Positions 14,287 to 54,805 of a stretch of 64,000 bases of DNA are shown piece by piece. The DNA lies in the IMG/VR virus record IMGVR_UViG_3300028805_000055, positions 32,001-96,000 of that record; one strand, written 5' to 3'. Origin of the DNA: a virus (taxonomy: Duplodnaviria; Caudoviricetes). Each line of letters opens with the position of its first letter. Within the stretch, counting starts at the first letter, position 1. The notes beneath the pieces are model-generated. The model had not been told where the DNA came from. It worked only from the letters and a program-made list of their open reading frames with translations, and searched no databases. A program made the position numbers and the translations under genes.

Positions 14287-15171
14287 TTACTCGACAGGAG
14301 GATTAATCACATGATTTATCATTTTAGGAATAATTGTACGCATCTTATTCTCATATCTGTTTATAAACTGCTTCAACCACTTGCGAAAGTGATTCCAATT
14401 ACTAAATCTGTAATCAGAACACTCCCTAACAACATATAACGCACACATCTGGTCAACCACATCAGATAAGTTAACAAGATACCATGCAGAAGCAACAGCC
14501 CTCTCATAACGAGAATACTCAACAGTACTACGCAAGAACTTAATCGCATCCTTGTACGTCCTTATACTACCAGCAGGCAAGTCCCTCAACTTGGTGAACA
14601 TCGCAGCATTCCTGGCATTCCTCTCAAATCCAATACCATAGAATAAAACCCTGTTAACTGCCCTCTCAATACTAGTATAATTCGCCTTGTTTTTATCAGA
14701 TAACATACCCTTGTTAATAACATTGCCAAATGTCTTGGAATAACCAACCCTAGACAACTCGTCACCAAGACCTCCTTCACTGCTACCACGCCTACCAACA
14801 TCCTCAATCATGTGAGTCAACTCATGAACCAACGTAGCATGGAAGGTAGAATCCTTCTTGTTATTGAATAAAATCTCTGGATTTATAAACAATACACAAG
14901 GCTTTCCAGATGAAACTGGAGGCATACCATAACAAGCACGAAGATTCATGTTGGTAGGACGTACCTCTAAGTAACCAAGAGGAAGACCATCGTAAGGAAT
15001 AGTAAATGATTCGTACTCCCAACTGTCAGACCACCTGCGCCTTACCTCACCCATAACATAATTGGCAAAACTGTCAATGTTGTTGGGTAAACCATAATAC
15101 TCCCTAATCAACCTACATTGACCCTCACTAACGTATACCTTCTTGCTATTATCCATCGTATTTAAAATCAT
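14287..15171 (-). CDS. HEXXH zinc-metallopeptidase-like protein
   Basis: TLVHELTHMIE...E.NA motif. Confidence 0.65.
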   Translation of the reverse strand: MILNTMDNSKKVYVSEGQCRLIREYYGLPNNIDSFANYVMGEVRRRWSDSWEYESFTIPYDGLPLGYLEVRPTNMNLRACYGMPPVSSGKPCVLFINPEILFNNKKDSTFHATLVHELTHMIEDVGRRGSSEGGLGDELSRVGYSKTFGNVINKGMLSDKNKANYTSIERAVNRVLFYGIGFERNARNAAMFTKLRDLPAGSIRTYKDAIKFLRSTVEYSRYERAVASAWYLVNLSDVVDQMCALYVVRECSDYRFSNWNHFRKWLKQFINRYENKMRTIIPKMINHVINPPVE

Positions 15172-15175
15172 AATC

Positions 15176-15832
15176 CTATCTAATTAAACCTTTATTAAGA
15201 TGCTTGTTTATAACCTCAACTATTATCTTGTCTATTAATCTACCCTCCTGCCTGGAATAATGATAATACTCAGCCCTCGTCATATTCTGAGGAAACTTCT
15301 TGTCAACAATGTGCCTTCTTGAATTTAACTCGTCATAAACCAACTTAATCTCATACGGCACATCTAGCCTTTCAACCTTTTCACCAGAATCACCAGTCCT
15401 AGATAAAAACTCATCAAACGGTATCTCAATAACCTTACCACCTTTATTGAAAACAACAGAATATTTGCTAGCATTGCCACCAATATATTCCAATACCCTA
15501 GATACATATTCCTTTGATGGTACTCTACCATCATCAACTGCAAGATATTTGCCCAGGAAAAGCCTTCCACGACCCTCACAACTTAACCATATTTCCTCAG
15601 TCATACTGTCAATCTCAGAATCATTAAACCAGTTGTATATGTCACCAGCGTTGAAAGACTTTAATATATCATCAAAAGCTTGACCTGCACAGGAATAATG
15701 ACAATCACCATAATATAATCTAGGAGTACCATATATGTCACATGGACAATAAGCAAAAGAATCACCATCAAGAACATTCTCCATCTTATAACCCTTGTAT
15801 ATAAAGTTACACGTATTAACAAACTCTTTCAT
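15176..15832 (-). CDS. hypothetical protein (putative late/virion)
   Basis: Upstream TATTTATA; C-terminal E...IDKII.E.I motif. Confidence 0.75.
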   Translation of the reverse strand: MKEFVNTCNFIYKGYKMENVLDGDSFAYCPCDIYGTPRLYYGDCHYSCAGQAFDDILKSFNAGDIYNWFNDSEIDSMTEEIWLSCEGRGRLFLGKYLAVDDGRVPSKEYVSRVLEYIGGNASKYSVVFNKGGKVIEIPFDEFLSRTGDSGEKVERLDVPYEIKLVYDELNSRRHIVDKKFPQNMTRAEYYHYSRQEGRLIDKIIVEVINKHLNKGLIR

Positions 15833-16012
15833 ATAATAATATATTATGTATATAAATAATAACCCGTCTACAGAATTTCCAAAAATTTTTTCCAGAATTT
15901 TTTTTTAATACACACACCAATAAAAAAAAGAGGACCACCTTCCTGGAAACAACAAAAATTTTTTCCGAAATTTTATTTAGCAAACTGTCCAACCCCTAAT
16001 GTGTTAAAAACT

Positions 16013-16055
16013 GGGGGACTGGGGGTGGGGGACATAGGTGGGGGGTAGGTGGGGG
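16013..16055 (+). other. G-quadruplex-capable tract
   Basis: Five runs of 5-6 G within 43 bp. Confidence 0.8.
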
Positions 16056-16070
16056 TGTACGTCCCAAGAT

Positions 16071-16138
16071 GTAAAGAGTTTTTACTCACTAAGGGATACA
16101 TATACTATATATGTGATGCTAATGTAAAGAGTTTTTAC
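16071..16138 (-). repeat. 68-bp composite site, copy A
   Basis: Box GTAAAAACTCTTTAC-N12-TATATAGTATATGT-N12-box, read on minus strand. Confidence 0.85.
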
Positions 16139-16401
16139 TTAACTTATTGAAATACAGTAAATTGAATAAGTAAAAAGTCGTTTATAAGCGTTTATTCATG
16201 CTGTAGGCTTATAGTTATCCATACGGCTGGTAAAATGCTCTTAGAATGGCTGTAAATAGCCTTAAATCGAAAGTTTTGATATTAGATGTATTTCCTTATG
16301 CGTGTGTACGGGTGTGTGTCCTGGGGTCGCCAGGATGATAGTTAACGTATGGGCACAAAAAAAAACTCCCACCACCTTTAGAGTGATAGGAGTTTTTTTA
16401 A

Positions 16402-16968
16402 TTAGTGGATAAGTACCATCTTTCGTCCGTCAATGTTCACGAAGTTGATGTCAGCTACATTGAGGGTAAAAGGCTTAACTTGGTCTTTAACCTCGATACC
16501 TGCTGCTGCTTGGCGGTTGCTGCTGCTGCTTGGTCTGAAAGCTGCCTCGATGCTCTTAATGGTCTGTGGGTCTGTTACCTTGACACCATCAAGAATGTAG
16601 GTCACATCTTTCTTGGTAGCCTTAATGGTATATAAGCGGAGGTAGGTTGCACCCTTATGGGCGATAGTCTTATTAGGGATAATCCAAGTGCCCCAAGGCA
16701 GGGATTCTGCAACAAACTTTTCAGCCTTACCATCAGAAGCCTTTGGCAAGCGGTTATTGACTGCATTTTCATAGTTCGCATTGAACTGCAAACCGCTGCA
16801 ATCAGTAACGGCAGACACCCGACCATAGTAGGGATTTTTCTGTCCACCCGCTAATTTCTTGTTGATGTGTTCTACATCAGTTGTGTAGGACAAAGAGCAG
16901 AATTGACAACCTGTGATACCATTCATCACGTTAACGAACTCACTAACTAAAATAGAATTTGTTTTCAT
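16402..16968 (-). CDS. phage hypothetical protein
   Basis: YENAVN...LPWG.W...HKG..YL; own promoter (17107) and terminator (16357-16399). Confidence 0.85.
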   Translation of the reverse strand: MKTNSILVSEFVNVMNGITGCQFCSLSYTTDVEHINKKLAGGQKNPYYGRVSAVTDCSGLQFNANYENAVNNRLPKASDGKAEKFVAESLPWGTWIIPNKTIAHKGATYLRLYTIKATKKDVTYILDGVKVTDPQTIKSIEAAFRPSSSSNRQAAAGIEVKDQVKPFTLNVADINFVNIDGRKMVLIH

Positions 16969-17292
16969 ATCGGATATGAATTAAAGTGTGAATACTTGCA
17001 GCCTATCTGATAGACTGCGTTAATTGTGATTGTGAGTGATAACTTTGTCGTTATCAGTTACATTGTGTTTCAGTAAGTCAAAGAGCGCATCATTTCTGAT
17101 TTCTGCTGCAAAGTTAAGCATTATTTTTCATCCCTGCAAGAAAAAAACGATTTTTTTTCGTAAAAAAGTGCATTTTTTCTATTTTCAATGACTGAAAATA
17201 TAGATAGCACACTATTTTGCTATTTCAGAGTTTACAAAAACACCCATTTTTGCATGATGACGTTTCCAGCATCATGCTGGTATAGGTAAGAA

Positions 17293-17360
17293 ATAAAAAG
17301 TTTTTACAAGCTAAGTGCCTATATAGTATATGTCGCTTAGGCTGGGTAAAAAGTTTTAAC
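17293..17360 (+). repeat. 68-bp composite site, copy B
   Basis: ATAAAAAGTTTTTAC-N12-TATATAGTATATGT-N12-GTAAAAAGTTTTAAC. Confidence 0.85.
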
Positions 17361-17582
17361 AGTGCCATTCTTAGATGCTGGGCGATACCAGCAAACCAGC
17401 GAAAAAACGTCCACAATCGTTTAAAGTGGTGCTGGGGGTGTAATTATACCTTTGGCTGGGTGTTCGCCCGTTGTGGACGATTTCTGATAGGTTTACGGGC
17501 ATCATCCGTATTTCTCTTATATTGGAATAAAAGAAAAATCCCCAACTTGTTAGGCTGGGGATTTTGCTGGGAGTGCTGGGAG

Positions 17583-19109
17583 TTACTTTTTAAATTCCAC
17601 CGCAAAAAGGTCTTTTTGCTCCATATTAACGAACACTAATTCTTTCTTGGCTCGTGTTATTGCCACATAGCGCAAGTTCATTTCTTGCTCTAATTCCCAA
17701 TCCTTTTGCCCTTTCCAAGTAAGCGGGAGTTTGTTAGGGAGCAGGATAACAACTCTATCGGATTCCAAACCCTTAGATTTGTGGCAAGTGCTAAGTGTCA
17801 CGGCATTGGCGATATTGGCATCATTGAAAAGTTGCTCGATAGTGTTCTTAACTGCATCCAAGTTAGAGTTATTTTCGCCAATACAAAGAATGCAGTCGAT
17901 ACGGTCACAATAGGCAATATATCTACCAGTTTCCTTTGCTTCTTCTGGGGTCATTTGCTCTTTCTTTGCAATCTCTTTAGCCAGTTTGTTTTTCTCGTTA
18001 TCAGCCCAAGTTTCAAAACCCTTAATGGTCTTTGCCTTACTCTTATCAATCATAGTGATAAGACCATTGGCGATGTCACGACCCTTAACAACTGCGGTAA
18101 CACCAGCACGGATAAGTTTAAGACACATAACCACTAATGGTGCAGCAGTGCGGCAAAGCACCATATCGTTTGCCTTAAACGTGTCTAAAGTGAGTTGGTT
18201 GATGCTTGTTACTTCGCCAGCTATTGCACCAGCATGAGCCTGTATTTCGGGGACTACTTCTTGCGCCAGCTCAATGATATTGTAGCCACAACGATAGTTA
18301 ACTGATAGCGGCAACTCCTTTGTATTGGGGAGTGTAGCAATCTTATTGAATGACTGACAATCAGCACCAGCAAAGCCGTTGATAGCTTGTCGCCTATCGC
18401 CAACGGCTACGAAACGTCCACCTTTTGCAGCAGCCAGCATCAGTTCGCGTTGTGCTGCACTAAGGTCTTGGCATTCGTCAATGAAAACCACCTTATAGCT
18501 GGGAATCTGCTGGGGATAGGAAAGCGGGAGCACCAGCATATCCGTGAAATCAATTTCCAACTTACCATTTAGGTTAAGTTCATAGGCATCAGCCAGCAAC
18601 ATATCGACAACACTAACTTCGTTAGCCAGCGGAGTGATAGAGTGCTCCTCACAGATGGCTTTGATAGACTCCGTATCACCCTGATGGATAAGGTTAATAC
18701 GACACAAGCGGAACAACTTATCAGCATTGTTCAAAGCCTTAATGTAGTCTTTGTCGTCACGATTGAGCGAAAGCATATTATCATCCTTAATGATATTGAT
18801 ATACTTTCTATCGTTGATGTCGAATTTGCGGTCTTTGCCAGCAATCTTTTTCAGCACGGAGTAGCCAAAAGAATGCAGGGTTGAAACGTCGGCATAATTG
18901 CCAATCTTATAGGATAACTCCTTAACAATAGAGTTATTGAATGCCAAAAACTTCACATCAAATTTGCCCAAGTGGAGTCGTTTGCAGCACTCCACAATTG
19001 TGGTGGTCTTACCACTACCAGCAACTGCATTGATAGCAAGGTTTGTGCTACCGTTTTCAACCTCGTTGAAGATGTTCAACTGATACTGAGAAAAATTCAT
19101 TTTTGCCAT
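17583..19109 (-). CDS. UvrD/Rep superfamily 1 helicase
   Basis: AVAGSGKTT, DECQD, VGD.RQAI.GF.GA, NYRC, HKSKGLE, YVAITRAK. Confidence 0.95.
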   Translation of the reverse strand: MAKMNFSQYQLNIFNEVENGSTNLAINAVAGSGKTTTIVECCKRLHLGKFDVKFLAFNNSIVKELSYKIGNYADVSTLHSFGYSVLKKIAGKDRKFDINDRKYINIIKDDNMLSLNRDDKDYIKALNNADKLFRLCRINLIHQGDTESIKAICEEHSITPLANEVSVVDMLLADAYELNLNGKLEIDFTDMLVLPLSYPQQIPSYKVVFIDECQDLSAAQRELMLAAAKGGRFVAVGDRRQAINGFAGADCQSFNKIATLPNTKELPLSVNYRCGYNIIELAQEVVPEIQAHAGAIAGEVTSINQLTLDTFKANDMVLCRTAAPLVVMCLKLIRAGVTAVVKGRDIANGLITMIDKSKAKTIKGFETWADNEKNKLAKEIAKKEQMTPEEAKETGRYIAYCDRIDCILCIGENNSNLDAVKNTIEQLFNDANIANAVTLSTCHKSKGLESDRVVILLPNKLPLTWKGQKDWELEQEMNLRYVAITRAKKELVFVNMEQKDLFAVEFKK

Positions 19110-19252
19110 AACGATTAAGTTTTTAATAAATTAAATATTCAAAATTTGGGTGCAAAATTAATGGTTTTCCAGCATATTTCCAAATAATTTATGATAAATT
19201 TAGAGAATTTAAGGAATTTTTAGAAATCAGCAGGGTGTGATGTTGTAAAAAA

Positions 19253-19319
19253 ATAAAAACTTTTTACAAACTGAATGCCTATATAGTATATGTCATTTTG
19301 CTTGATAAAAAATCTTTAC
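19253..19319 (+). repeat. composite site, copy C (67 bp)
   Basis: ATAAAAACTTTTTAC-N12-TATATAGTATATGT-N11-ATAAAAAATCTTTAC. Confidence 0.85.
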
Positions 19320-19439
19320 AGCGGGTCTGCTGGGGAAAAGTAAAAAAATCGTACAAGCGGCAAATCAATTATATTACGAAGTAATATGGGTCAAAGAAAA
19401 ATCTTGACAAATCGTAGGGGGTAGGGGGTTATAGGTGTG

Positions 19440-19785
19440 TCGCCCTGCTGGTAGGCTGGTTGATACTGGTAGTTGTCCAGAGTCCAGCAGGATGGTAGGC
19501 TGGTAGCCTGCTGGTGTGCTGGTAGCTTGCAGGCTGGTGACTGGTGCTGGGAGTGCTGGTGTGTGTGTACCTGTCGCCTGTCACGTCGCTGGTAGCTGGG
19601 AGTGCTGGTATGCGTTGTGCTGGTGTGCTGGTGGTGTGCGTCACGATGTGTTATGTGTGTGTGATGTTTCACGTGGAACATACACAATAATATTATTTTA
19701 CATCATGATAATCATGTATGATGTGTTATGATATTATATAATGTGGTGATGTGATGTATTGTGTTGTATGTGTTGTGTATATCAC
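19440..19785 (+). repeat. non-coding GCTGG(T/G)-rich tract followed by TG/AT low-complexity tract
   Basis: About a dozen same-strand GCTGG in ~200 bp; overlapping ORFs are low-complexity artefacts. Confidence 0.8.
19665..19680. other. parS: parS centromere site
   Basis: TGTTTCACGTGGAACA, matches the bacterial parS consensus. Confidence 0.85.
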
Positions 19786-19901
19786 TAAATGTACTTTTTT
19801 AAGTCTTATATATAAAGAAACCAGCACGAGTTTCACAACTGATGCTGGCTGAATATGAAACATCATTAATCAAAACTTAAATCGTATAGCATTATGCAAT
19901 A

Positions 19902-19919
19902 TGTACTTTTAAAAGTACA
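19902..19919. promoter_or_regulatory. palindromic motif TGTACTT-N4-AAGT (9 copies in window)
   Basis: TGTACTTTTAAAAGTACA; other copies at 19790, 25161, 26936, 27951, 44186, 44577, 45137, 45678. Confidence 0.75.
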
Positions 19920-19931
19920 AAGGAGTCAATG

Positions 19932-20174
19932 CTACTTGGTCATAGCATTGAGTTCCTTCTTGATGCGTCTGGCGGTTTCACCTCTCCAGCTACTTGCGTT
20001 AGCAAGGAAATAGAGTACGATGCTCTTACCAGAGTCCCAGCCGTAGTTGTCATTGACTGACTCCAGGCACGACATTGCGTCAAGGTAAGGTTTTGCACCA
20101 AAGTAGATATTCTTCCAATCATTGCGGATTTCTTTTGCTACCTCGTACAGAGGTCTTGTTGTTTGCTTTGCCAT
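19932..20174 (-). CDS. small phage protein
   Basis: RPLYEVAKEI..DW...YFGA.PYL.AM...YFLANA..WRG; start MAKQ. Confidence 0.85.
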   Translation of the reverse strand: MAKQTTRPLYEVAKEIRNDWKNIYFGAKPYLDAMSCLESVNDNYGWDSGKSIVLYFLANASSWRGETARRIKKELNAMTK

Positions 20175-22248: not shown

Positions 22249-22556
22249 AACCTTATATCAATATCGTTAAATAACTTAGATGAATCCCACATATTTCTGT
22301 TCTCGTCCTTGCACCACTTCTCATATTGGTCGCACGATAGTCTTTCTTCAAGTTCTACCTTGAACACACAGACCTTATCACATCTGTATCGGTAGAGCAG
22401 GGTGTTAGCCTTTTTCCTTGCACTCTCAAAGTATGTGTAAGCCTTTATATGGTGACGGAAAATCCAACTCACCACATTACCCTCTTGTAGTGTGCATCCA
22501 ACTCCATCTACGAATACCACTACGATAAATCTTGTTGTTGTTGATACGTTTGCCAT
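22245..22556 (-). CDS. hypothetical early protein
   Basis: Start MANV, after promoter 22582. Confidence 0.75.
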   Translation of the reverse strand: MANVSTTTRFIVVVFVDGVGCTLQEGNVVSWIFRHHIKAYTYFESARKKANTLLYRYRCDKVCVFKVELEERLSCDQYEKWCKDENRNMWDSSKLFNDIDIRL

Positions 22557-26385: not shown

Positions 26386-26886
26386 TTAACGAATCACTAT
26401 GACTTTCTCAACAATCTGAATGTCCTCGTAGTAGTCGTCACAGGGGTCATTGATATACCACCTGTCGTTACTTTCTTCGATTTCAAAGTCCTCTTTCAAC
26501 TGCTTCTTGGTACGACCCATGTAGTGAGGGGACTCGTCCAAGATGGTATTCTTCTCATCCTGTAATACTTTCCTTGCTGCCTCTCTCGTGGTACAGGGTA
26601 CAGCATTGATAATGAGTTCACCGTCCACGTTGCTTTCCTGCTGTACTATATAAACTTTCTGGAGGCAGAAGGGATGCTGTATGACGTAATCACCCAACAG
26701 CAGTCTAACTACCTGTTCCCTGTCAGCCAGAGGAATAAGCGTGTGGTAGTCTCTCATCCAATCCATCAAGTCACCGTAGATGGTTTGTCTCTCGCTGTCA
26801 CTCTCCAGACTACTCTTATCCAATAGCTTTTCAACCAAATTTGGATGTTTGGTCAGAATCTCTTGATAAATCTCTGTTACTTCCAT
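26386..26886 (-). CDS. hypothetical early protein
   Basis: Gene run. Confidence 0.8.
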   Translation of the reverse strand: MEVTEIYQEILTKHPNLVEKLLDKSSLESDSERQTIYGDLMDWMRDYHTLIPLADREQVVRLLLGDYVIQHPFCLQKVYIVQQESNVDGELIINAVPCTTREAARKVLQDEKNTILDESPHYMGRTKKQLKEDFEIEESNDRWYINDPCDDYYEDIQIVEKVIVIR

Positions 26887-26955
26887 AATGTTATGCTGTT
26901 TAAATTGTGTATACGTGTTGTTAATATAGCTGGCTTGTACTTATTCAAGTCCAGA

Positions 26956-27201
26956 CTACTCTACGATGCTGATGATTTGCTCACCATAGCACCAATGGTT
27001 ATCATCCAGAGAGAAAGTGTATTCGACACCCTCTGCAAAGTTACCTGCTCTGTATTTGAACTCAACCTCATCAACAGGCTCACCATACTTCTCGCCACAC
27101 TCACATTCCTCGATGCCAATAACCTTAGCAGTCTTAGGAGTTCTGTCACCATGTAGGCGATACTTAACCTTTGTTCCAATTTTGATAATTTGCTTTGCCA
27201 T
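26956..27201 (-). CDS. hypothetical early protein
   Basis: After promoter 27229. Confidence 0.8.
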   Translation of the reverse strand: MAKQIIKIGTKVKYRLHGDRTPKTAKVIGIEECECGEKYGEPVDEVEFKYRAGNFAEGVEYTFSLDDNHWCYGEQIISIVE

Positions 27202-27308
27202 AATGTTTGATGTTTAATTGTTTGACGCTGCAAAATTAGACAAAAAAAGTGAGACCACCAAAGAATAGTCCCACTTTTAACAAACATTAAGAATCTGGTT
27301 ACAGCCCC

Positions 27309-27647
27309 TTAGGAAGCGACCTGCGTCTGGTGGCTCATGTGGCAGGCAGCACACGCCATTTCTTCCTGCTCAGCGTCGTTGAGGCAGTCATACTCAAAGT
27401 TATAAGCCTTTAGGTTGGCTTTCAACTCATGGAGTGCTGTCTGGTAAGCCCGAACGTTTGAACGCCCTACAGCGAGGGTTGTAGACAGGTCTTTCACCAC
27501 GCCATCCTTTGACTTGTCACCCCACATTGGCGTAATCTGGTCACGCAGGGCTTTGTTTTTAGCCTCCTGTTCTTTGAGGCTCTTACGGAAGACATTGATT
27601 GAGCGTGCAACACGGCTCATGTTCTTTCTGCATTTCTCTTTGCTCAT
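27309..27647 (-). CDS. hypothetical coiled-coil early protein
   Basis: Gene run. Confidence 0.75.
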   Translation of the reverse strand: MSKEKCRKNMSRVARSINVFRKSLKEQEAKNKALRDQITPMWGDKSKDGVVKDLSTTLAVGRSNVRAYQTALHELKANLKAYNFEYDCLNDAEQEEMACAACHMSHQTQVAS

Positions 27648-27677
27648 AATTTTACACTTTTATATAGATTAATATTA

Positions 27678-27923
27678 TTATCTCCAAGGCACTAACTTGA
27701 ACCAGACAAACAGCACGTCGCTCGTGTCTCCAGACATAATGCCTTCTGGCTTATAGAGTCTGGCGTTGAATACTTCTGTATCAATTTCGTCGATAGCCCA
27801 ATTGCAACAGCCAACATTATCGTCCTCGAAGAACTCTTTTGCTTCACCGAAACACATCCCACCCAGACGCTTAACGTTGTATTTGTCTGGGTTTACGGAT
27901 GCGTGTAATATCTGTATCTTCAT
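27678..27923 (-). CDS. hypothetical early protein
   Basis: Gene run. Confidence 0.7.
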   Translation of the reverse strand: MKIQILHASVNPDKYNVKRLGGMCFGEAKEFFEDDNVGCCNWAIDEIDTEVFNARLYKPEGIMSGDTSDVLFVWFKLVPWR

Positions 27924-27966
27924 ACTCGTGATTATTTTATATAACCTCTTTGTACTTATTCAAGTC

Positions 27967-28650
27967 CTACCAGTTCTCAACAAACTTAATCTCTGCTGTG
28001 GTGTCCTTAACTCCCTGTGATGCAAAGTAAGCCTCTACAGCCTCTTTCAGTCCTGCTTCAAACTGCTTGGGGTCTTTGATGCGCTTCGACTTCGTGTAGG
28101 TGTAAATCTCAAACTTCTCATGGAAAGTGTAGTGGTCTGTGATATACTTCTCCAACTCGTCGTAATGCTCCTGTGATAGTTCTCCTGCCTCGTAGTGGAA
28201 ATTAGCATCATCAAGTCTATCTTCCAACAGGAGTTTCATGCGCTTGTCAGCCTTTTTATGCTCCTTTAGAATCTTCATTAAGGACTCGTAGCCATATCCC
28301 CACTGGCATTTGTGATTGGGTCTGTAAACGTATTTCTCACGTTCTGCATCAGTGAAATAGATTACCTCGCCAGACAGCATTTTGTCGATAGCCTCCTTTG
28401 CTGTCTCTATGCTCTTCGGAGTTGGATATACGCCACCATAAGCCTGTGCGGGTCTGTTCTCGTCGCCCTCCTTACAGAACTCGTAGTAAACCTCTCTTTT
28501 GGTCTCATATTGCTTTGTCATTTCATATCTCCTATTCCACTGGTTGAACCAATGATGAATAGCTAAGACACGAATAATTGAAAAGCCTTTGTAGGTCTCA
28601 CCTACCTTGCTTCTACTTCTTGTAATTCCATCTGATTTTCCCATAATCAT
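27967..28650 (-). CDS. hypothetical early protein
   Basis: After promoter 28672. Confidence 0.85.
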   Translation of the reverse strand: MIMGKSDGITRSRSKVGETYKGFSIIRVLAIHHWFNQWNRRYEMTKQYETKREVYYEFCKEGDENRPAQAYGGVYPTPKSIETAKEAIDKMLSGEVIYFTDAEREKYVYRPNHKCQWGYGYESLMKILKEHKKADKRMKLLLEDRLDDANFHYEAGELSQEHYDELEKYITDHYTFHEKFEIYTYTKSKRIKDPKQFEAGLKEAVEAYFASQGVKDTTAEIKFVENW

Positions 28651-47614: not shown

Positions 47615-47871
47615 ATTTTATTTTGTTTAAAATTTTTCAACGATACACTGAAGACACAGTTTTTTCACACTTATTTCTAATTTTTTTTACGTCTATTTAC
47701 TAGTTCTTTCACTGTCCATTATTATAGTGTTGAGTGAGGTTGTTACCAACACCCTAACTTTCTCTTCCCTTCCCAGAATTTTTCACGCACACACTCTAAG
47801 AGATATGCATAGGAACACACCGAGAAATACCAAAAAAATTCAAGAATTCTCACTATCTCTAACCCATTCAT

Positions 47872-47884
47872 AATCAAGCACTTA
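47872..47884 (+). promoter_or_regulatory. IHF-consensus site in a 340-bp non-coding gap
   Basis: AATCAAGCACTTA matches WATCAANNNNTTR. Confidence 0.45.
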
Positions 47885-47955
47885 CAACTAAATAATTCTC
47901 AAAAATTTTGTATATATTTGGCTTTACGTTACGTGTATTTGTAACTGTCTATTAA

Positions 47956-49964: not shown

Positions 49965-50439
49965 AATTGTCTGGTTTATCTGTTAATCTTATTCTTCCTA
50001 CAATTTGTAGTTTATCTGTTACAATCTCCCCGTAGTCGTTCCTATAGTAGGTTGCTCCTGCTGGGATGATGCAATGCACCAGTATTGGGTATCTCTGTAC
50101 CATTCTATCGTACCAGAAATACATTGGGCTGGCATAGTTGATTAGTCTGGCAATGAATGCCTTTCCGTCCACTGTGCTTTGTTCGAATTCAACGTCCCAG
50201 TCGAAGCAGTGTATTCCCTTGTCTATGGTACAGTGTTGTAAGTTATCGGAGTGCATGCGGATATTCTTAACCTCTATGTCAGAGGTATAGGTTTCTCCGA
50301 ACTCATACTTCTTTATATCCTTATGTCTTACATAGTAGGGGCAATAATACTCATGAGAGGGATTATACGCTATAACTTTCTTACAGTGTATATCATCCTC
50401 TGCTACTTGTTTTGACAAGAGTTTTCCGTACCAACACAT
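49957..50439 (-). CDS. MCW-family paralogue 1 (putative ADP-ribosyltransferase fold)
   Basis: MCW.GK, GIHCF, IIPAGATYY.N..GEIVTDKL. Confidence 0.6.
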   Translation of the reverse strand: MCWYGKLLSKQVAEDDIHCKKVIAYNPSHEYYCPYYVRHKDIKKYEFGETYTSDIEVKNIRMHSDNLQHCTIDKGIHCFDWDVEFEQSTVDGKAFIARLINYASPMYFWYDRMVQRYPILVHCIIPAGATYYRNDYGEIVTDKLQIVGRIRLTDKPDNYD

Positions 50440-54409: not shown

Positions 54410-54805
54410 TTATAATAATTTTTGTTCGTGTAATTTAATAATCATAGCCACACAAGCATCAACAGGATTGTCTGCTGACACTGTAAAATCTTCACTGTGA
54501 CTATCATCTTCGTACTCGCACCACCAATTATCAATATATTCAATTGGCTCTATTCTCCAACCTCCTCTTGACAAAGTTGTTGATTCTTTTTCGTTATTAG
54601 GTAAAATGCTGTACAACGCTGCAAGACTCCAACAAGGAATTGTCTTAATCCCTAGCATAATTTCAGCAATCTGCATATCGGCCAAATTTCCAAATGCCTC
54701 CTTGTAGTTGTCTCCTATTCCCTTCTCAAAATACATATCCGCACTTTCAAGAGGAAGGAACTCTGCCAACTTCTTGCTTTGTTCTAAATCGGTGAATGCT
54801 TTCAT
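54410..54805 (-). CDS. hypothetical protein (EQS..L...ADMY...WSL.AL family)
   Basis: Paralogous to next gene. Confidence 0.8.
   Translation of the reverse strand: MKAFTDLEQSKKLAEFLPLESADMYFEKGIGDNYKEAFGNLADMQIAEIMLGIKTIPCWSLAALYSILPNNEKESTTLSRGGWRIEPIEYIDNWWCEYEDDSHSEDFTVSADNPVDACVAMIIKLHEQKLL

What the first reader, a model, noticed from the sequence alone, without database searches (positions are those of the whole stretch)
16071..19354. Three 68-bp composite sites bracketing a helicase at a strand-skew switch
Seen: the architecture is box(15)-N12-TATATAGTATATGT-N11/12-box(15), where the box is the quasi-palindrome RTAAAAAnTYTTWAC. Copies lie at 16071-16138 (reverse), 17293-17360 and 19253-19319 (forward), with an extra degenerate box at 19340-19354. 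Box spacing is 52-53 bp, about 5 helical turns. Copies A and B are inverted around gene 16402-16968; B and C are direct around the UvrD gene. By eye the + strand is C/A-rich left of ~16.0 kb and G/T-rich right of it. Inference: initiator-binding replication origin(s) with an AT-rich melting core, or terminase/recombinase sites.
Basis: partly seen in the sequence, partly recalled or inferred. Interest (0 to 1): 0.7.

Follow-up and report, generated by a model that had tools for sequence, protein, structure and literature searches.

The report
Phased box-core-box sites in jumbo phage
Three copies of a 68-bp DNA site, made of two palindromic boxes set five helical turns apart around a TATA-like palindrome, mark one non-coding locus of a rumen giant phage; they are conserved protein-docking sites, most likely replication-origin elements, though a role in controlling early genes is almost as likely.

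Summary
Three composite sites lie at 16071-16138, 17293-17360 and 19253-19319. Each is a 15-bp palindromic box, N12, a 14-bp core, N11-12 and a second box. They occur nowhere else in the 153.7-kb phage record (CheckV 52% complete).

Related rumen phages carry 2-4 such sites at the same positions: upstream of the UvrD-like helicase, upstream of a 188-aa gene, and beside a G-run tract. Across nine distinct sites the boxes are 82% and the core 94% identical, but the spacers only 36-45%. Box spacing stays at 51-54 bp, or 41-43 bp in one type.

The sites sit in unusually long untranscribed spacers. They occur in either orientation at orthologous positions and keep no fixed distance to the next host-type promoter. 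Individual copies can be lost. The motif is absent from 185,579 cellular genomes.

The + strand GC skew jumps by +0.41 at 16.0 kb, with origin-like sign and no change of gene orientation.

- Best reading (about 0.35): origin-type assembly sites.
- Close rival (about 0.3): regulator sites for early genes.
- Not supported: recombinase, terminase, MITE and centromere readings.

No binding protein was identified. Other first-stage notes of this scan cover the same locus; none tested it.

The parts
16071..16138 (-). Composite site A: box 16071-16085, core 16098-16111, box 16124-16138. It is the positionally conserved ('A-type') copy, next to the G-run tract.
   Evidence: An ortholog lies at the same place in G001, G002, L119, G005, G003 (variant) and L299. 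No host-type promoter follows it.
17293..17360 (+). Composite site B: box 17293-17307, core 17320-17333, box 17346-17360. It lies between the helicase 3' structures and the promoter of the 188-aa gene.
   Evidence: It is missing in G001 through an ~85-nt deletion but kept in L278. It is the only copy with a significant long ssDNA hairpin (z -3.15).
19253..19319 (+). Composite site C: box 19253-19267, core 19280-19293, box 19305-19319. Its core centre lies 126 bp upstream of the -7 element of the helicase promoter.
   Evidence: In G001 it is replaced by an unrelated ~20-bp stretch.
19340..19354 (.). Solitary degenerate box, 35 bp (centre to centre) from the right box of C.
   Evidence: It is conserved, and closer to consensus, in G001, which lacks C.
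16013..16056 (+). Tract of five G5-6 runs directly beside site A.
   Evidence: The same tract abuts the A-type site in G001, G002, G003 and G005.
17583..19109 (-). UvrD-like SF1 helicase gene, bracketed by B and C.
   Evidence: The bracket is conserved in G002, G005 and L299.
16402..16968 (-). 188-aa gene of unknown function between A and B.
   Evidence: The AF2 model has pLDDT 90.6 and no convincing structural match.
19153..19184 (-). Host-type (Bacteroidota) promoter of the helicase: TTTG, N20, TAATTTTG.
   Evidence: It is conserved in all relatives, including G001 without site C.
17109..17139 (-). Weaker host-type promoter of the 188-aa gene: TTGC, N19, TAACTTTG.
17384..17582 (-). Structured 3' region of the helicase transcript, including the terminator hairpin at 17535-17565. 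It ends just before site B.
   Evidence: I1; z -6.35 on the - strand.
16359..16399 (-). Hairpin terminator after the 188-aa gene, with A and T runs on both sides.
   Evidence: (I8).
19440..19640 (+). Strand-polarised GCTGG array, C-rich in the sense of the genes, between the upstream gene and site C.
   Evidence: 15 GCTGG in 19001-20000 against a mean of 0.45 per 500 bp.
19665..19680 (.). parS-like 16-mer, one mismatch from the chromosomal consensus.
   Evidence: Two consensus-like copies occur in the distant relative L125.

Best explanation
The three 68-bp elements are docking sites for a sequence-specific, probably phage-encoded, dimeric or multimeric DNA-binding protein (or protein pair). 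A dimer sits on each palindromic box. The boxes lie on the same face of the helix, five turns apart. A third symmetric contact is made at the TATA-like palindromic core, whose TA steps let the DNA bend or open, so about 70 bp is wrapped into one nucleoprotein complex.

Together with the adjacent G-run and GCTGG tracts, the sites define the one special cis-acting locus of the held genome. I take it to be the replication-origin region. Site A would be the conserved primary element. B and C would be auxiliary or redundant origin copies that also tie initiator occupancy to the helicase and the 188-aa gene. This would resemble the box / AT-core / box origins of herpes simplex virus (oriS) and papillomaviruses, or the multiple origins of phage T4.

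Shown here: the sites exist, are unique to this locus, are under selection as three phased sub-sites, are orientation-independent, and coincide with a local skew jump of origin-like sign.

Inferred only: the binding protein, the wrapping, and replication initiation.
For: 1. Uniqueness. The core and boxes occur only here in 153.7 kb. The same 4 kb holds 8 of the record's 28 G5+ runs and its GCTGG peaks.

2. Selection as binding sites. Across nine distinct canonical sites from seven phage lineages, pairwise identity is 0.82 for boxes and 0.94 for the core, against 0.36-0.45 for spacers. For A versus its G001 ortholog, boxes and core are kept and spacers replaced. Box spacing is 51-54 bp in nine canonical sites, or 41-43 bp in one orthologous pair, i.e. 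whole numbers of helical turns.

3. Symmetry. Box and core are palindromes. The core's minor asymmetry points either way at orthologous positions in different lineages. That fits a symmetric assembly rather than a directional promoter.

4. Placement. The sites lie in untranscribed spacers between terminator structures and the next promoter. These gaps are 569, 614 and about 820 bp, against a median of 85 bp.

5. No fixed promoter geometry. The distance from the core to the next host-type -7 element ranges from 91 to 471 bp, and A-type sites have no such promoter.

6. Skew. The jump at 16.0 kb (dGC +0.41, dAT -0.18) occurs without a change of gene orientation and has the sign expected at an origin. 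It recurs at the A-type site of G001, G002 and G003.

7. Not a host motif.

8. Context. A parS-like site lies 350 bp from C; on chromosomes parS sites cluster near origins (established knowledge).
Against: - No initiator or DNA-binding protein was found among 20 neighbouring ORFs.
- No family A or B polymerase and no DnaB helicase lie in the held 153 kb.
- The only replication-type gene nearby is an accessory-type SF1 helicase.
- The skew jump decays within about 5 kb and could reflect the odd composition of two genes (14287-15832) plus G-rich non-coding DNA. A similar jump without any such sites exists at 48.0 kb.
- The locus lies 2-5 kb from a convergent, not divergent, gene junction.
- B and C are missing in the closest relative.
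- More distant relatives with the same genes lack the sites altogether.
- The core is only 11-14 bp and is conserved in sequence, so it is not a classical unwinding element.
- Twelve of the 19 catalogued sites do lie upstream of an early promoter.
Confidence: 0.35

Rival explanations
1. The sites are regulator sites for a small regulon of early genes. A phage-encoded dimeric regulator binds the boxes, and a partner or the same protein binds the core, upstream of the host-type promoters of the helicase, the phage sigma factor and the 188-aa gene. It forms a bent or looped complex that activates, silences or insulates these transcription units. The closest parallels are phage phi29 p4/p6 complexes or lambda OL/OR.
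For: - Twelve of the 19 catalogued sites are followed in the sense direction by a full TTTG-N19-21-TAnnTTTG promoter.
- The distance is 126-128 bp in three lineages upstream of the helicase, and 91-95 bp in three sites upstream of the sigma gene or a 237-243-aa gene.
- Sites lie upstream of the sigma gene in G002 and G005.
- Copies are individually dispensable.
- Within one genome the copies evolve in concert. For example, both G003 sites share a 12-bp core variant, as expected if sites track one protein's specificity.
- Only 3 of about 62 host-type promoters in the record have a site, which suggests a specific regulon.
Against: - Distances to the promoter vary from 91 to 471 bp, and no site overlaps a promoter.
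- The most conserved copy (A-type) has no host-type promoter downstream in six lineages.
- Orientation flips at orthologous positions.
- No HTH or RHH protein was found nearby.
- The helicase promoter is equally conserved in G001 without site C.
Confidence: 0.3
2. The sites are recombination-prone boundary cassettes or a small selfish palindromic element. The repeats serve, or simply persist, as exchange points for gene modules in the manner of T4-type PeSL cassettes, or as REP/BIME- or MITE-like extragenic palindromes that spread in either orientation.
For: - Homology blocks between the window and relatives end at or next to the sites.
- Gene order around them is shuffled: sigma lies next to the helicase in G002 and G003 but about 4 kb away in G000, G001 and G005, and the 188-aa gene has two alleles.
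- There is presence/absence polymorphism.
- Both orientations occur at one position.
- Sub-families of spacers and box variants are shared across positions and genomes, and copies within a genome are homogenised.
- The box / AT-core / box layout recalls the REP / IHF-site / REP arrangement of E. coli BIME/RIP elements (recalled knowledge, not tested).
Against: - There are only 2-4 copies per genome, always in the same 4-5 kb and at syntenic positions, not dispersed.
- There are no target-site duplications or clean empty sites; G001 shows replacement or an ~85-nt deletion with diverged flanks.
- No transposase, serine recombinase or tyrosine recombinase lies in 153 kb.
- Strong conservation of three sub-sites and of their phasing is not needed for homologous exchange.
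- Hairpin potential is significant only for B.
Confidence: 0.15
3. The sites are packaging or partition sites: recognition sites for the small terminase subunit (pac/cos-like), or a phage centromere of the P1 parS type, in which boxes flank a bend site.
For: - The composite layout, with boxes either side of a bendable centre, resembles P1 parS and lambda cosB (established knowledge).
- A host-type parS-like site lies nearby.
- Two metagenomic contigs end within 0.3-1.2 kb of an A-type site.
Against: - No ParB-family gene lies in 153 kb, and no terminase gene was seen near the locus.
- Three to four copies spread over 3-5 kb are unlike a pac/cos site.
- Most contigs run through the locus.
- Centromere function already has a better candidate in the parS-like sites.
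Confidence: 0.07

Closest known systems
Herpes simplex virus oriS/oriL and papillomavirus origins (palindromic origin-binding-protein boxes flanking an AT-rich or palindromic centre)
   Same: - Two palindromic or inverted protein boxes flank a short AT-rich centre.
- The overall layout has dyad symmetry.
- There are several redundant copies per genome, each individually dispensable.
- The elements lie in intergenic DNA next to replication or early genes.
   Different: - The phage boxes are 52-53 bp apart, much further than HSV Box I and Box II.
- The centre is a strictly conserved 11-14-bp palindrome rather than a simple AT run.
- No origin-binding protein is identified.
- Replication initiation is untested.
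- There is no sequence or evolutionary relationship.
Iteron-type phage and plasmid origins (lambda ori, SPP1 oriL/oriR, P1/F/R6K) and T4 multiple origins
   Same: - Repeated, phased binding sites cluster in one locus.
- Extra copies could double as autoregulatory operators.
- Several origins per genome are known in SPP1 and T4.
   Different: - There is no array of directly repeated iterons.
- No long AT-rich unwinding element is adjacent.
- No initiator gene overlaps or adjoins the sites.
- The sites lie 1.2-2 kb apart, each in its own intergenic spacer.
Phage operator systems with looping or bending (lambda OL/OR, phi29 p4/p6 sites at A2c/A2b/A3)
   Same: - Palindromic, A/T-tract-rich dimer sites occur in a few copies.
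- They lie 1-2 kb apart in the early region.
- Phasing is compatible with protein-protein contacts and DNA bending.
   Different: - The sites do not overlap promoters and keep no constant distance to them.
- The best-conserved copy has no recognisable promoter.
- No repressor-like gene lies between the sites.
T4-type PeSL cassettes and E. coli BIME/RIP (REP / IHF-site / REP) extragenic palindromes
   Same: - They are intergenic and flank variable genes.
- They occur in either orientation and show presence/absence polymorphism.
- They lie at mosaic junctions.
- Palindromic units sit around an AT-rich centre.
   Different: - PeSLs carry an early promoter plus a stem-loop; here the promoter is separate and a hairpin is not conserved.
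- BIMEs occur in hundreds of dispersed copies and are mobilised by RAYT transposases; here there are 2-4 syntenic copies and no transposase.

Membership tests
Replication origin (initiator-box / AT-core type) | Clustered, phased binding sites for an initiator. | tested here: met
   There are three tripartite sites with 52-53-bp box phasing. Boxes and core are conserved and spacers are not. That the binder is an initiator is not shown.
Replication origin (initiator-box / AT-core type) | An initiator or origin-binding protein encoded nearby or identifiable. | tested here: not met
   No DNA-binding or initiator family was found among 20 flanking ORFs. The 188-aa protein has no convincing fold match.
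Replication origin (initiator-box / AT-core type) | Strand-composition switch of origin sign at the site. | tested here: inconclusive
   There is a local jump at 16.0 kb (dGC +0.41, dAT -0.18) with no change of gene orientation, and it recurs in three relatives. However, it decays within about 5 kb, and a similar jump exists at 48.0 kb without any sites.
Replication origin (initiator-box / AT-core type) | Initiation of DNA synthesis at the site (coverage peak, bubble arcs, ori-plasmid assay). | not testable with these tools
   No reads or experimental data are available.
Directional promoter (host sigma-A or phage sigma) | Fixed orientation relative to the transcribed gene, and many copies for a promoter class. 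| tested here: not met
   Orientation is 11 against 7 relative to gene sense and flips at orthologous positions. There are only 3 copies in 153 kb. The sites do not match the TTTG / TAnnTTTG consensus, which has 62 copies.
Operator / upstream regulator site | Constant position relative to a promoter, overlapping it or at a fixed upstream distance. | tested here: inconclusive
   Distances are 126-128 bp in three lineages and 91-95 bp in three sites. Others are 173-471 bp, and A-type sites have no promoter downstream.
Site-specific recombination sites (res, hix, lox, attC) | A cognate serine or tyrosine recombinase, and rearranged products (inversion or deletion). | tested here: not met
   PF00239 and PF00589 are absent from the 153-kb record. 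Genes between the sites keep their orientation in all relatives. The record is only 52% complete.
MITE / REP-BIME-like mobile palindrome | Dispersed copies, target-site duplication, and clean empty sites. | tested here: not met
   Copies are confined to one syntenic 4-5-kb locus. The G001 'empty' sites are replacements or an ~85-nt deletion without duplications.
parS / plasmid-type centromere | A cognate ParB-type protein, and the parS consensus or an iterated centromere array. | tested here: not met
   There is no ParB_N match in the record. The boxes are unrelated to the parS 16-mer, which is present separately at 19665-19680.
Host transcription-factor regulon motif | The same composite motif in host (Bacteroidota) chromosomes. 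| tested here: not met
   A pattern scan of 185,579 species genomes gave 14 loci, none with both boxes.

The most novel reading that the evidence does not exclude
A bacterial giant phage uses several redundant, eukaryotic-virus-style origin modules. Each has two phased palindromic loader boxes around a conserved TATA-like palindrome, in the manner of HSV oriS or papillomavirus origins. They are combined with a G-quadruplex-prone tract and host-type parS sites into one replication and segregation control locus. The modules flip, duplicate and drop out between close relatives.
Probability: 0.25. Interest if true: 0.65.

Novelty: new variant of a known kind. Interest (0 to 1): 0.45.

Why it matters
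Replication origins and early regulatory circuits of uncultured giant phages of gut and rumen Bacteroidota are essentially unknown.

This locus offers a compact, well-defined 68-bp probe whose three sub-sites are mapped by natural variation. It could be used to fish out the binding protein and to test origin function. Natural variants lacking two of the three copies already exist as controls.

If the locus is an origin, it would give the first origin architecture for this phage group and a handle for building replicons or marker-frequency analyses in rumen viromes. If it is regulatory, it defines a small regulon (helicase, sigma factor, 188-aa protein) at the switch from host-dependent to phage-directed transcription.

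Tried and rejected
- **GenBank phages.** A distant blastn of 15800-19800 against 50,697 phage records found no match.
- **Bare 14-mer scan.** Scanning IMG/VR with the 14-mer alone returned only chance AT-rich hits and was uninformative. Composite-pattern scans were needed instead.
- **Rfam.** A search of 14-22 kb found nothing above noise.
- **Non-coding RNAs driven by the sites.** The + strand folds of 16139-16401 and 17361-17582 are weaker (z -2.35, -3.67) than the - strand folds (z -4.00, -6.35). These stretches therefore look like 3' structures of the upstream genes, not site-driven RNAs.
- **Cruciform or hairpin as the selected feature.** Only B folds significantly; the ssDNA z-scores are A -1.95, B -3.15 and C +0.30.
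- **The 188-aa protein as binder.** The model is confident (pLDDT 90.6), but Foldseek found nothing at E<=0.001. VIA-align found only Sm/SH3-like barrels (YaeO, Hfq, WYL) at Z<=6.8, within the noise range given for the tool. A 56%-identical homologue also occurs in a phage without sites.
- **Distant relatives.** Relatives with 50-54% helicase identity, including records of 295-412 kb, have dense host-type promoters but no box-core-box sites.
- **The second skew flip at 48.0 kb.** It carries no related repeats.
- **Literature.** Searches for the core sequence and for rumen jumbo-phage origins gave nothing relevant.
- The calculation was redone from the files.
Full report
**What the window is.** The window is bases 32001-96000 of a 153,679-bp IMG/VR virus record, estimated 52% complete. 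This suggests a genome of roughly 300 kb. Relatives found through the helicase come from the same kind of samples, and some records are 295-412 kb.

Almost every gene carries a Bacteroidota-type promoter (TTTG, 19-21 nt, TAnnTTTG). There are 62 full matches in the record, so the host is probably a Bacteroidota species. Genes run on the + strand from 3.4 to 14.0 kb of the window. They run on the - strand from 14.3 kb to the end of the record.

**The observation.**
- The 14-bp core is exact three times and occurs nowhere else in the record.
- The box pattern gives 11 strand-matches against 0.53 expected, all within the sites.
- Solitary boxes elsewhere are at chance level.
- Box centres are 53, 53 and 52 bp apart.
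- A is inverted relative to B and C.
- B and C are 79% identical over 71 nt, spacers included.

The core is itself a palindrome (five-base arms around a central G/C). The spacers carry a weaker CTAAG/CTTAG dyad. The extra box at 19340-19354 is conserved in the closest relative.

**Comparative evidence.** I catalogued 19 sites in seven lineages: G000 (the window's record), G001, G002 (G004 is nearly identical to it), G003, G005, L119 and L252. A metagenome scan added more on rumen contigs (L270, L271, L273, L275, L278, L299).

Three positions recur:
- about 160-210 bp upstream of the helicase start;
- between the helicase and a 188-aa gene (or its divergent allele);
- beside a conserved tract of G-runs (the 'A-type' site).

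L299 repeats the whole arrangement: site, helicase, site, 188-aa-like gene, site, 294-aa gene.

Across nine distinct canonical sites the pairwise identity is 0.82 for each box and 0.94 for the core. It is only 0.45 and 0.36 for the two spacers. Site A and its G001 ortholog show the same pattern directly. Box spacing is 51-54 bp in those nine. In one orthologous pair (G002, L119) it is 41-43 bp, one helical turn less. This is the signature of three protein contacts held in helical register.

The composite is confined to a small clade.
- An IMG/VR-wide pattern scan returned only the known relatives as true sites.
- Relatives with 50-54% helicase identity have none.
- A phage with a 56%-identical 188-aa protein also has none.
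- None of 185,579 cellular species genomes has one.

**Where the sites sit.** They lie in three of the longest non-coding gaps of the record: 569, 614 and about 820 bp, against a median of 85 bp. In the sense of the genes, each gap begins with terminator-like and other stable structures of the upstream transcript. The site follows, flanked by C-rich (sense) tracts. Then, for B and C, comes a host-type promoter. The sites therefore occupy what are probably untranscribed spacers.

The same 4 kb concentrates 8 of the 28 G5+ runs and the GCTGG peaks of the record. It also holds a parS-like 16-mer.

**What the sites are probably not.**
- *A directional promoter.* The slight asymmetry of the core (a CC/CCC flank on one side) points with the genes in 11 sites and against them in 7. 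It differs between lineages at the same position. There are only three copies. The phage has other, better candidates for its own promoter or regulator motif.
- *A classical operator.* The distance to the next -7 element ranges from 91 to 471 bp, and A-type sites have no host-type promoter behind them.
- *A host regulon motif*.
- *A cruciform.* Only B folds significantly as single-stranded DNA.
- *A transposable palindrome.* Copies are few and syntenic. The 'empty' sites of G001 are a replacement (C) and an ~85-nt deletion with diverged flanks (B), with no duplications.
- *Recombinase sites.* No serine or tyrosine recombinase is present in 153 kb, and no inverted segments occur in relatives.
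- *A centromere of the ParB type*.

**Dynamics.**
- The closest relative G001 (helicase 97% identical) lacks B and C but keeps A, the solitary box and both promoters.
- L278 keeps B in front of the G001-type allele of the 188-aa gene.
- Homology blocks between relatives tend to end at the sites.
- The sigma-factor gene has moved next to the helicase, between sites, in G002 and G003.
- Copies within one genome resemble each other more than their positional counterparts elsewhere. G000 B and C are alike. Both G003 sites share a 12-bp core variant. G005 1851 and 3974 share an unusual right arm.

The copies thus evolve in concert and mark mosaic junctions. This could be a side effect of being repeats.

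**Skew.** The genome-scale skew follows gene orientation.
- The two - strand genes left of site A have + strand GC skew of -0.30 and -0.40, with positive AT skew.
- The - strand genes to its right have about 0 to -0.09, with negative AT skew.
- Values return to the usual -0.15 to -0.2 by about 21 kb.
- The jump at 16.0 kb (+0.41 GC, -0.18 AT, 2-kb arms) is the second largest in the record. The largest is a plain change of gene orientation.
- The sign is that of an origin: G and T excess on the strand that would lead away from it.
- The same jump is seen at the A-type site of G001, G002 and G003, although in G003 the downstream gene is different.

The evidence is weak. The effect is local. Part of it comes from the G-rich non-coding tracts. 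A comparable flip at 48.0 kb has no related repeats.

**Weighing.** That these are selected protein-binding sites forming a phased complex is well supported (about 0.9). The function is open.

An origin-type assembly gets about 0.35. It best accounts for the uniqueness of the locus, the symmetry and orientation-independence, the promoter-less conserved copy A, the untranscribed-spacer location, the accompanying G-runs and parS-like site, and the skew jump. Against it stand the missing initiator, the absence of replisome genes in the held half of the genome, the dispensability of B and C, and the nearby convergent gene junction.

The other readings follow:
- A small early-gene regulon (helicase, sigma factor, 188-aa gene) is nearly as likely, at about 0.3.
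- Recombination-boundary or selfish-repeat readings get about 0.15.
- Packaging or partition gets about 0.07.
- The remainder covers other or no function.

No candidate binder emerged from Pfam, PHROGs or NCBIfam scans of 20 neighbouring ORFs. None emerged either from a confident structure model of the 188-aa protein.

**Comparison with known systems.** The architecture works most like the box / AT-centre / box origins of herpes simplex and papilloma viruses, and less like iteron origins of phages and plasmids. It also shares features with looping or bending operator systems (lambda OL/OR, phi29 p4), and with intergenic cassettes such as T4-type PeSLs or E. coli BIME/RIP elements. It fails at least one defining test for membership in each of these (see the membership table). 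These comparisons rest on established knowledge of those systems, not on sequence relationship.

I rate it a new variant of a known kind (phage cis-acting, multi-part protein-binding repeats), of moderate interest.

Noticed in passing
window 16013-16056; also G001 22455-22510, G002 54555-54590, G005 175-225, G003 50010-50065: A tract of four to five G5-9 runs around a conserved ACATAGG motif (G-quadruplex-prone) abuts the A-type site in five lineages. In the sense of the genes it would give very C-rich RNA, reminiscent of Rho-utilisation sites.
   Followed up: partly
window 19440-19640 and 17380-17580: Strand-polarised GCTGG arrays: 15 and 8 copies per kb against a record mean of 0.9 per kb. 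They are conserved at 86-91% in G001 and occur only in this locus.
   Followed up: partly
window 19665-19680; L125 1148-1163 and 1614-1629: A parS-like 16-mer, one mismatch from the chromosomal consensus, lies beside the locus. Two consensus-like copies occur in a distant relative next to its sigma-factor gene. No ParB_N gene is present in the held record.
   Followed up: partly
window 15875-15900 and 15948-15973; L125 932-990; L131 10572-10630; G005 1-130: Repeated A/T-run motifs centred on TTCCAGAA or TTCCGAAA. They are direct repeats 73 bp apart in the window and an inverted pair in distant relatives. They are conserved far beyond the clade that has the composite sites.
   Followed up: no
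window 19791, 19903, 25162, 26937, 27952, 44187, 44578, 45138, 45679: A second motif class: the 16-bp palindrome GTACTT-N4-AAGTAC, with a TATA-like element 7-8 nt away (about 10 copies). It is also seen in relatives with only 50-54% helicase identity. It may be a phage-specific promoter or regulator site, perhaps for the phage sigma factor.
   Followed up: partly
window 17384-17582 (- strand): About 200 nt after the helicase stop fold far better than shuffles (z -6.35), with 33-nt inverted arms that are conserved in G001. This is a structured 3' UTR or a small RNA.
   Followed up: partly
window ~48000 (gap 47615-47955): A second local skew flip of origin-like sign (dGC +0.33, dAT -0.33) lies inside a same-orientation gene array. 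It has no box-core-box sites or notable repeats.
   Followed up: partly
window 14287-15832: The two - strand genes left of site A are compositional outliers (sense-strand GC skew +0.30 and +0.40, with T>A). The 294-aa product carries an HExxH motif, and a longer neighbour in a relative has a weak SprT-like hit.
   Followed up: no
window 16402-16968: The 188-aa protein family has about 38 clusters, all unannotated. It gives a confident AF2 model (pLDDT 90.6) without a convincing PDB match; the best are Sm/SH3-like barrels at Z<=6.8. Two alleles only about 33% identical occupy the same slot in close relatives.
   Followed up: partly
G000 26757-28550 (5.2-3.5 kb before the window start): A second UvrD-like helicase paralog (597 aa, 35% identical to the bracketed one) is conserved in G001, G002 and G003.
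   Followed up: no
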